A stretch of DNA of 64,000 bases, taken from the NCBI RefSeq assembly GCF_045037415.1, contig NZ_CP173438.1; one strand, 5' to 3'. The position numbers were made by a program, and so were the translations under genes. Below, piece after piece: positions 17,681-18,059 of the stretch (position 1 is the first letter of the stretch; each line of letters starts with the position of its first letter). The notes beneath the pieces are model-generated. The model was given only the letters and a program-made list of their open reading frames with translations. It did not search any database and had not been told where the DNA came from. The DNA is from Escherichia coli. Its GTDB lineage: Bacteria; Pseudomonadota; Gammaproteobacteria; Enterobacterales; Enterobacteriaceae.

Positions 17681-18059
17681 TGTTTTCCTTGCGGGTTGTC
17701 CCGAGCCTCTTTGACGGATGTAATTAAAATGTTGAATAAAAATACATAGATATTAAATATGATCGTGGCAAATTTTATTCATTAAATCAATTAAATCACT
17801 TAAACCTGCGGGTTATTTCGTAATTACATTAGTTAAAAAACTTAAAACCATTAAATAAATAAAAAACCACTAACTCTATGTGAAATAAATCAAAATTTCA
17901 CGCCGAAATACTCCTTAGGATGTATAGCGAAAGGAGAAAAAGATATACCTCGATCACCCCCCTTTCTCCCAAGTGAAAATAAAAGGTTATCAATTTGCAA
18001 CATTGAACAACATTCGTTGCAAATCGATAACAACATGCACCTTCAGGATACTATTTATT

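What the first reader, a model, noticed from the sequence alone, without database searches (positions are those of the whole stretch)
17880..17901. 22-bp palindrome GTGAAAT-N8-ATTTCAC in the dpiB / citC divergent control region
A near-perfect palindrome lies ~160 bp upstream of citC in a 380-bp AT-rich spacer shared with dpiB. It is a candidate binding site for DpiA or another dimeric regulator of the citrate fermentation genes. The arm spacing does not fit the CRP consensus.
Basis: seen in the sequence. Interest (0 to 1): 0.25.

Follow-up and report, generated by a model that had tools for sequence, protein, structure and literature searches.

The report
CRP-type site in citC promoter
The 22-bp palindrome is real but no rarer than chance; only its left half is conserved, as part of an ordinary CRP-type activator site (TGTGA-N6-TCAAA) sitting at about -41.5 in the E. 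coli citC promoter, not a DpiA operator.

Summary
The sequence GTGAAAT-N8-ATTTCAC is present exactly at 17880-17901, in the 379-bp, 31% G+C spacer between dpiB and citC of E. coli. As a palindrome it is not significant. A 7-bp inverted repeat with a 0-12 bp spacer is expected 0.83 times in shuffles of this spacer.

Comparison across Enterobacterales shows what is conserved. The left arm plus part of the spacer, TGTGAA-N-A-NN-TCAA (17879-17894), is invariant. The right arm ATTTCAC occurs only in Escherichia.

The conserved 16-mer is a CRP-type site, TGTGA-N6-TCAAA. It is the best CRP weight-matrix score in the whole 64-kb window. It lies 29.5 bp upstream of a conserved -10-like TAnnnT (17916-17921). 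That puts its centre at about -41.5 from an inferred start near 17928, the class II activator geometry.

A published Citrobacter rodentium PcitC truncation, described as lacking the "DpiA operator sites", begins just upstream of this motif. It keeps the motif and loses the citrate response. The probable DpiA sites are the conserved A+T-rich blocks further upstream (17777-17866).

"Another dimeric regulator" is right, and the statement that CRP does not fit is wrong. The finding is ordinary and of low interest.

The parts
17880..17901 (.). The reported palindrome GTGAAAT-N8-ATTTCAC. It is real in the sequence but occurs at chance frequency and is not conserved as a unit.
   Evidence: 46% of shuffles have an equivalent repeat; right arm found only in Escherichia
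17879..17894 (.). CRP-type site TGTGAAATAAATCAAA (TGTGA-N6-TCAAA), centre 17886.5, inferred position -41.5. This is the truly conserved element.
   Evidence: Twelve columns are invariant in the unanchored 20-genus alignment: T17879 G T G A A17884, A17887, T17890 C A A17893, and A17895, which lies just outside this 16-mer. CRP matrix score is 14.57 bits, best of 63,985 window positions and rank 2 among 68 RegulonDB CRP sites. One mismatch to the consensus.
17895..17901 (.). Right arm ATTTCAC. It lies in the -35/spacer region (-33 to -27) of the inferred promoter. It is derived in Escherichia; Citrobacter and Salmonella have ATTTACC, ATTTATC or AATTACC.
   Evidence: information content 0.2-0.85 bits at 17896-17901, against 1.8-2 bits in the left arm
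17916..17921 (+). Inferred -10 hexamer TAGGAT of the citC promoter. There is no recognisable -35.
   Evidence: T17916, A17917 and T17921 are invariant in alignment A1. TA..AT is present in 55-59 of 62 loci at a fixed offset of 37 nt from the T of TGTGA, in columns not used for anchoring. The consensus promoter scan finds no sigma-70 promoter with both hexamers.
17927..17929 (+). Inferred citC transcription start, not measured. It gives a leader of about 132 nt.
   Evidence: Inference from the position of the -10 element.
17777..17866 (.). Conserved A+T-rich repeat blocks (ATTAAATCAATTAAA...; TTAGTTAAAAAACTTAAAACCATTAAA), the probable DpiA/CitB operator region at -151 to -62.
   Evidence: Direct-repeat families D1 and D2. 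Near-invariant columns in A1. This is the region removed in the non-responsive DTR305 construct. An invariant run 17833-17874 within Escherichia.
17909..17924 (.). TACTCCT-TA-GGATGTA, which resembles a NarL 7-2-7 site and overlaps the -10. It is a possible nitrate-repression operator.
   Evidence: The only match in the window to TACYYMT-NN-AKRRGTA with up to 2 mismatches, though 2.8 are expected per window by chance. Conserved in Escherichia, Citrobacter, Salmonella and Hafnia. Nitrate inhibits PcitC.
18060..19118 (+). citC, [citrate (pro-3S)-lyase] ligase, the first gene of the regulated operon.
16022..17680 (-). dpiB (citA), the sensor kinase gene transcribed divergently.

Best explanation
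The functional element is a 16-bp CRP-type operator, TGTGAAATAAATCAAA (17879-17894). It sits at about -41.5 in an activator-dependent citC promoter that has a -10 of TAGGAT at 17916-17921, no -35, and an inferred start near 17928.

The proposed mechanism is as follows. A cAMP-CRP dimer bound there contacts RNA polymerase in the class II manner. It works together with phosphorylated DpiA (CitB) bound to the A+T-rich repeats further upstream (-151 to -62). The promoter therefore needs both citrate with anaerobiosis (through DpiB/DpiA) and CRP.

The 22-bp palindrome arises because, in the Escherichia lineage only, the unconstrained -35/spacer segment happens to read ATTTCAC, the complement of the CRP left half plus its flank.

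What is shown: the sequence, the conservation pattern, the fixed spacing to the -10, the matrix score, and retention of the element in a construct that is unresponsive to citrate. What is inferred: CRP as the protein, the transcription start, and cooperation with DpiA.
For: Conservation:
- In the unanchored alignment of 20 dpiB-citC spacers, from Escherichia to Edwardsiella, TGTGAA..A..TCAA.A is invariant while the right arm is not.
- Across 62 loci, including ones with different upstream genes, the motif is followed at a fixed 37-nt offset by TAnnnT. The site centre is therefore 29.5 bp from the -10, which corresponds to -41.5.

Match to CRP:
- A matrix built from 68 RegulonDB CRP sites gives this site 14.57 bits. 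That is the best position in the 64-kb window, and no second CRP-like register covers the right arm.
- Accepted CRP sites of the same form exist, for example ykgR TGTGATACATGTCAAA at -41.5.
- No -35 or full sigma-70 promoter is found, as expected for an activator-dependent promoter.

Literature:
- CRP-cAMP binds the K. pneumoniae citC-citS intergenic region and activates together with phospho-CitB. From memory of Meyer, Dimroth & Bott 2001 (J Bacteriol 183:5248), those sites are centred at -41.5.
- Robinson et al. report regulation of the C. rodentium PcitC in E. coli by DpiAB, NarL and cAMP-CRP. Their 'delta DpiA operator' construct starts just upstream of this motif.
Against: - No binding or expression experiment for E. 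coli citC with CRP could be retrieved.
- The citC/dpiB spacer is absent from the CRP genomic-SELEX target list and from the 2011 RegulonDB CRP site list in Shimada et al.. Unaided CRP binding may therefore be weak, or the site unrecognised.
- The promoter-proximal half is always TCAA, not TCAC, which is the FNR-type half-site.
- E. coli ferments citrate only with a co-substrate such as glucose, which sits awkwardly with CRP activation.
- The transcription start is inferred, not measured.
Confidence: 0.75

Rival explanations
1. The full 22-bp palindrome is an operator for a DpiA (CitB) dimer.
For: It lies in the control region of DpiA-dependent genes. It is perfectly conserved in six Escherichia lineages, inside an invariant run 17876-17902.
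Against: - The right arm is absent outside Escherichia, although DpiAB and citrate control are conserved.
- The C. rodentium construct that retains the element but lacks the upstream 'DpiA operator sites' does not respond to citrate.
- The mdh and exuT regulatory regions have no palindrome and no half-site.
- The palindrome occurs at chance frequency.
- The half-site centres are 15 bp apart, about 1.5 helical turns. That would put them on opposite faces of the DNA (inference).
Confidence: 0.05
2. The conserved 16-mer is bound by FNR, alone or alternately with CRP, and provides anaerobic activation from -41.5.
For: In the FNR register the site reads GTGAA-ATAA-ATCAA, an 8/10 match to TTGAT-N4-ATCAA with a perfect right half. 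The TCAA promoter-proximal half is near-invariant across genera (57 of 62 loci). The cit genes are expressed anaerobically. -41.5 is also the standard FNR position (established knowledge).
Against: - The left half is always GTGA, the CRP-specific form at the base pair that discriminates CRP from FNR (established knowledge of CRP/FNR specificity).
- No FNR ChIP-chip or ChIP-seq peak lies between 624047 and 655340.
- No citC/dpiB entry appears in the FNR peak table, the predicted-site table or the delta-hns tables of Myers et al. 2013.
Confidence: 0.1
3. The palindrome acts in Escherichia only, as the operator of a lineage-specific dimeric regulator or as an RNA hairpin.
For: The arms are perfect in all Escherichia species sampled. 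As RNA, the plus strand folds to -6.5 kcal/mol, z = -5.4.
Against: - The element lies upstream of the inferred citC start, so it is not in the citC mRNA.
- The minus-strand fold is unremarkable (z = -1.8), and no terminator-like site is found there.
- There is no Rfam match.
- Conservation within Escherichia extends over the whole core promoter (17833-17925), so it is not specific to the right arm.
- An IS1 insertion within the right arm is tolerated in one clinical strain.
Confidence: 0.05

Closest known systems
Class II CRP-dependent promoters (for example galP1 and ykgR), and specifically the CRP sites of the Klebsiella pneumoniae citC and citS promoters
   Same: The TGTGA-N6-TCAnA core, the centre about 41.5 bp upstream of the start, a weak or absent -35, and co-dependence on an upstream response regulator (CitB/DpiA) in a citrate-fermentation operon.
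   Different: Binding and the transcription start have not been demonstrated for E. coli here. E. coli has one conserved site facing citC, in a dpiB-citC spacer rather than a citS-citC spacer. The promoter-proximal half is invariably TCAA.
DpiA/CitB (CitB-family response regulator) operators
   Same: Same intergenic region and same regulon.
   Different: CitB-family sites are described as A+T-rich sequences (title of Meyer et al. 1997). Here the conserved ATTAAA/TTAAAACC repeats at 17777-17866 fit that description, and the palindrome does not.
FNR sites (TTGAT-N4-ATCAA at -41.5)
   Same: Same protein family, same geometry, and an identical right half-site, ATCAA.
   Different: The left half carries the CRP-type G, and no FNR occupancy was reported.

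Membership tests
CRP (CAP) operator / class II CRP-dependent promoter | 16-bp core resembling TGTGA-N6-TCACA | tested here: met
   TGTGA-AATAAA-TCAAA, a 9/10 match. 14.57 bits with a matrix of 68 RegulonDB sites, the top score in the 64-kb window and rank 2 of 68.
CRP (CAP) operator / class II CRP-dependent promoter | Site centred near -41.5 from the transcription start, overlapping a poor -35 | tested here: inconclusive
   The centre is 29.5 bp upstream of a conserved TAnnnT, and no -35 is present. The start itself was not measured.
CRP (CAP) operator / class II CRP-dependent promoter | Evolutionary conservation of the half-sites and of their spacing to the core promoter | tested here: met
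   Invariant in the 20-sequence unanchored alignment. Fixed offset to the -10 in 55-59 of 62 loci.
CRP (CAP) operator / class II CRP-dependent promoter | cAMP-dependent CRP binding and CRP-dependent transcription | not testable with these tools
   Supported only indirectly, by K. pneumoniae CRP binding and by the statement in Robinson et al.. The site is absent from the CRP SELEX and RegulonDB-2011 lists.
DpiA/CitB operator | Conserved wherever DpiAB controls citC | tested here: not met
   The right arm is found only in Escherichia.
DpiA/CitB operator | Motif shared with other DpiA targets | tested here: not met
   No palindrome (up to 4 mismatches) and no GTGAAAT half-site in the mdh-argR or uxaC-exuT spacers of MG1655.
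DpiA/CitB operator | Protection by DpiA-P; needed or sufficient for the citrate response | not testable with these tools
   Indirect evidence only. The DTR305 construct keeps the conserved part of the element, lacks the annotated DpiA sites, and does not respond. The primary footprint paper (Yamamoto 2009) is not held.
FNR operator | TTGAT-N4-ATCAA with T at the discriminating position in both halves | tested here: not met
   8/10 overall, but the left half is an invariant GTGA.
FNR operator | In vivo FNR occupancy | tested here: not met
   No peak and no predicted site at citC/dpiB in Myers 2013 Tables S5-S7. Only one growth condition was examined.
Intrinsic terminator / structured RNA | G+C-rich stem followed by a U tract, or a match to an RNA family | tested here: not met

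The most novel reading that the evidence does not exclude
The invariant hybrid site, with a CRP-type GTGA distal half and an FNR-type TCAA proximal half, may be maintained across Enterobacterales because CRP and FNR use it alternately. One -41.5 operator would then integrate carbon and oxygen signals on top of DpiA. In Escherichia, the added right arm might create a further lineage-specific operator.
Probability: 0.08. Interest if true: 0.4.

Novelty: already known. Interest (0 to 1): 0.12.

Why it matters
The practical value is in correcting an annotation. The eye-catching palindrome should not be recorded as a DpiA operator.

The analysis gives a coherent map of the E. coli citC promoter:
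- DpiA repeats at -151 to -62
- a CRP-type site at -41.5
- a possible NarL 7-2-7 site over the -10
- an inferred start near 17928

This map matches the CitB-plus-CRP logic established in Klebsiella, and it can guide biosensor design with PcitC. It raises no new biological principle.

Tried and rejected
- **Primary papers not held.** These were Yamamoto 2009 on CitB footprints, Scheu 2012 and Meyer 2001. The limit of 15 papers was then reached.
- **Promoter and terminator scan.** It found nothing in 17600-18150. This fits an activator-dependent promoter but gives no positive evidence.
- **Klebsiella locus L067.** Its citC sits behind a transporter gene in the same orientation, so it says nothing about the divergent promoter. 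None of the 12 loci checked among those without an upstream dpiB has the K. pneumoniae citS-citC arrangement.
- **CRP consensus count.** Three hits against 1.9 expected in the window is not significant by itself. The matrix score and the conservation carry the argument.
- **nog1 terminator idea.** I considered whether the palindrome is the terminator of the antisense gene nog1. This was rejected. The hairpin with a U tract is the other inverted repeat at 17986-18031.
- **LysR-type regulator YbdO/CitR.** It shows no ChIP-exo binding at citC, and the dyad has no T-N11-A geometry.
- **ArcA ChIP-seq supplements.** They have no citC/dpiB entry.
- **Rfam.** Only a spurious match below threshold.

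Full report
**Observation.** The window is E. coli chromosome. The segment 17400-18400 matches 5,420 of 5,426 complete E. coli genomes and is annotated as dpiB and citC. dpiB starts at 17680 on the minus strand and citC at 18060 on the plus strand, leaving a 379-bp spacer of 31% G+C. Positions 17880-17901 read GTGAAAT-AAATCAAA-ATTTCAC, with perfect 7-bp arms.

It is not statistically remarkable. Dinucleotide-preserving shuffles of the spacer contain on average 0.83 perfect 7-bp inverted repeats with a 0-12 bp spacer, and 46% of shuffles have at least one. The window holds 109 such repeats.

**Comparative evidence.** A CitC-based scan of one genome per species returned 80 loci. Many keep the divergent dpiB-citC arrangement with a spacer of about 380 bp.

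- A fuzzy search for the 22-mer showed that the left arm and the following TCAA persist from Escherichia to Edwardsiella, Serratia and Hafnia. The right arm ATTTCAC is present only in the five Escherichia loci. Citrobacter and Salmonella have ATTTACC, ATTTATC or AATTACC.
- An unanchored MAFFT alignment of 20 spacers gives these invariant columns: T17879 G T G A A17884, A17887, T17890 C A A17893 and A17895. The conserved element is therefore TGTGAA-N-A-NN-TCAA.
- In 62 loci aligned on the motif, the right-arm positions 17896-17901 carry 0.2-0.85 bits, against 1.8-2 bits in the left arm. Arm complementarity outside Escherichia is 0-6 of 7. The TGTGA and TCA columns of this set were used for anchoring, so for those columns I rely.

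**What the conserved element is.** TGTGA-N6-TCAAA is a 9/10 match to the CRP core with the canonical spacing.

- I built a symmetrised weight matrix from 68 RegulonDB CRP sites listed in Table S4 of Shimada et al. 2011.
- With it the site scores 14.57 bits. That is the best of all 63,985 positions in the window and rank 2 among the 68 known sites.
- No other register across the palindrome scores above 2.3 bits.
- The same table lists accepted sites of the same form, such as ykgR TGTGATACATGTCAAA at -41.5.

**Promoter geometry.** Downstream of the motif, at a fixed offset, lies a conserved TAnnnT. This is TAGGAT at 17916-17921, with T17916, A17917 and T17921 invariant. The pattern is present in 55-59 of 62 loci in columns that were not anchored.

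- It holds even where the upstream gene differs, for example a dcuC-like transporter or a response regulator.
- Taking this as the -10 hexamer puts the start near 17928 and the site centre (17886.5) at -41.5.
- There is no -35-like hexamer, and the consensus scan finds no complete sigma-70 promoter.
- This is the anatomy of a class II CRP/FNR-dependent promoter.
- The right arm of the palindrome occupies -33 to -27, the part of such promoters that is least constrained. That explains why it drifts between genera.
- Within Escherichia the whole core (17833-17925) is nearly invariant, so the conservation of the right arm there is not specific.

**DpiA.** Robinson et al. (PMC12405535) located the DpiA-binding sites of the C. 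rodentium citC promoter by alignment to EcoCyc's MG1655 annotation. They built DTR305, described as 'delta dpiAB, delta DpiA operator sites'.

- Its forward primer anneals at CATCTAACTCTTTGTGAAATAAATCAAA, 9 bp upstream of the motif.
- The construct therefore keeps the motif and everything downstream, but it no longer responds to citrate. The construct that retains the full spacer does respond.
- The annotated DpiA sites therefore lie on the dpiB side of about 17870, and the motif is not sufficient for DpiA control.
- Caveat: Citrobacter has only the conserved part of the element, not the Escherichia right arm.
- The region removed contains strongly conserved A+T-rich repeats, ATTAAATCAATTAAA and TTAGTTAAAAAACTTAAAACCATTAAA at 17777-17866. 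These fit the description of CitB targets as A+T-rich sequences (title of Meyer et al. 1997, cited).
- The MG1655 mdh-argR and uxaC-exuT spacers are reported DpiA/CitB targets. DpiA is listed for exuT; mdh is from my memory of Yamamoto 2009. They contain neither the palindrome nor a GTGAAAT half-site.

**CRP versus FNR.** The left half is the CRP-type GTGA, and the right half TCAA is the FNR type. In the FNR register the site matches 8/10.

- Against FNR: the invariant discriminating G in the left half. Myers et al. 2013 also list no FNR peak between 624047 and 655340, and no citC/dpiB entry in their predicted-site or delta-hns peak tables.
- For CRP: held papers state that CRP-cAMP binds the K. 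pneumoniae citC-citS spacer and activates together with phospho-CitB. From my memory of the abstract of Meyer, Dimroth & Bott 2001, those sites are centred at -41.5 and binding is stimulated by CitB. Robinson et al. also name cAMP-CRP and NarL as host regulators of PcitC.
- Against a strong, autonomous CRP site: it is absent from the CRP genomic-SELEX and RegulonDB-2011 lists. A deliberately imperfect proximal half that needs DpiA for occupancy would reconcile this, but that is inference.

**Other readings.** As RNA, the palindrome forms a weak 8-bp hairpin of -6.5 kcal/mol. It lies upstream of the inferred start, has no U tract and has no Rfam match. The terminator-like hairpin for the antisense gene nog1 is the separate inverted repeat at 17986-18031.

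**Verdict.** The palindrome is a coincidental extension, in Escherichia, of a conserved CRP-type class II operator of the citC promoter. It is not a DpiA site. I give the CRP class II reading a confidence of 0.75. The kind of element is textbook, and its counterpart in Klebsiella has been characterised experimentally. I could not confirm whether the E. coli site is already curated. Interest is low.

Noticed in passing
window 17909-17924: TACTCCT-TA-GGATGTA resembles a NarL 7-2-7 operator (7/7 + 5/7) and overlaps the inferred -10. It is conserved in Escherichia, Citrobacter, Salmonella and Hafnia. It would explain nitrate repression of PcitC. It is not significant on pattern count alone (1 found, 2.8 expected per window).
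   Followed up: partly
window 17986-18031: An inverted repeat with 16-nt arms (15/16 complementary) and a 14-nt loop. On the minus strand it folds to -20.7 kcal/mol and is followed by CCUUUUAUUUU, which makes it the probable terminator of the antisense gene nog1 (ORF 17990-18295, minus strand; PMC4683798). On the plus strand it is a -16.3 kcal/mol hairpin in the citC leader. The left arm GTTATCAAnTTGCAAC is conserved far beyond Escherichia; the right arm is not.
   Followed up: partly
window 17718-17733: TGTAAT-N5-TGTTG is invariant across 20 genera and resembles an ArcA direct-repeat box (TGTTA-N6-TGTTA). It lies about 40-55 bp upstream of the dpiB start codon. No citC/dpiB entry appears in the ArcA ChIP-seq supplements of Park et al. 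2013. It could equally be dpiB core-promoter sequence or the DcuR site.
   Followed up: partly
L084 (E. coli Ecol_AZ155, NZ_CP019005.1) 1748-2445; corresponds to window ~17893-17900: An IS1A element is inserted inside the right arm of the palindrome, with target duplication AAATTTCA. It separates the CRP-type site and the DpiA repeats from the -10, so it probably uncouples citC from its activators in this clinical strain.
   Followed up: partly
window 17681-18059 versus L001-L005: The spacer is unusually variable within Escherichia, with 94 of 379 columns variable in 6 sequences. Most E. coli genomes are only 95-99% identical over 17400-18400. The variation falls in clear islands between invariant blocks. 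Sampled E. coli variants near the site differ only at 17904 and 17906.
   Followed up: partly
cit operon (window 18060 onward); literature: Myers et al. 2013 Table S11 lists citC, D, E, F, X and T among genes whose O2-dependent expression change appears only in a delta-hns/delta-stpA strain. This suggests that nucleoid proteins silence this A+T-rich control region. Their Table S2 has a sigma-70 peak 'within dpiB' that changes with anaerobiosis.
   Followed up: no
L078 and L031: A 484-bp contig at about 1x coverage, labelled Terrisporobacter mayombei, encodes CitC 99% identical to E. coli. This is probably contamination. A contig labelled Chryseobacterium sp. 18061 carries an enterobacterial citC locus nearly identical to that of Citrobacter sp. 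18056 from the same study, which suggests mislabelling or contamination.
   Followed up: no
window 17830-17840 versus L086 (uxaC-exuT spacer): The candidate DpiA block shares an exact 11-mer, TAGTTAAAAAA, with the exuT control region, another reported DpiA target. This may be chance in A+T-rich DNA.
   Followed up: no
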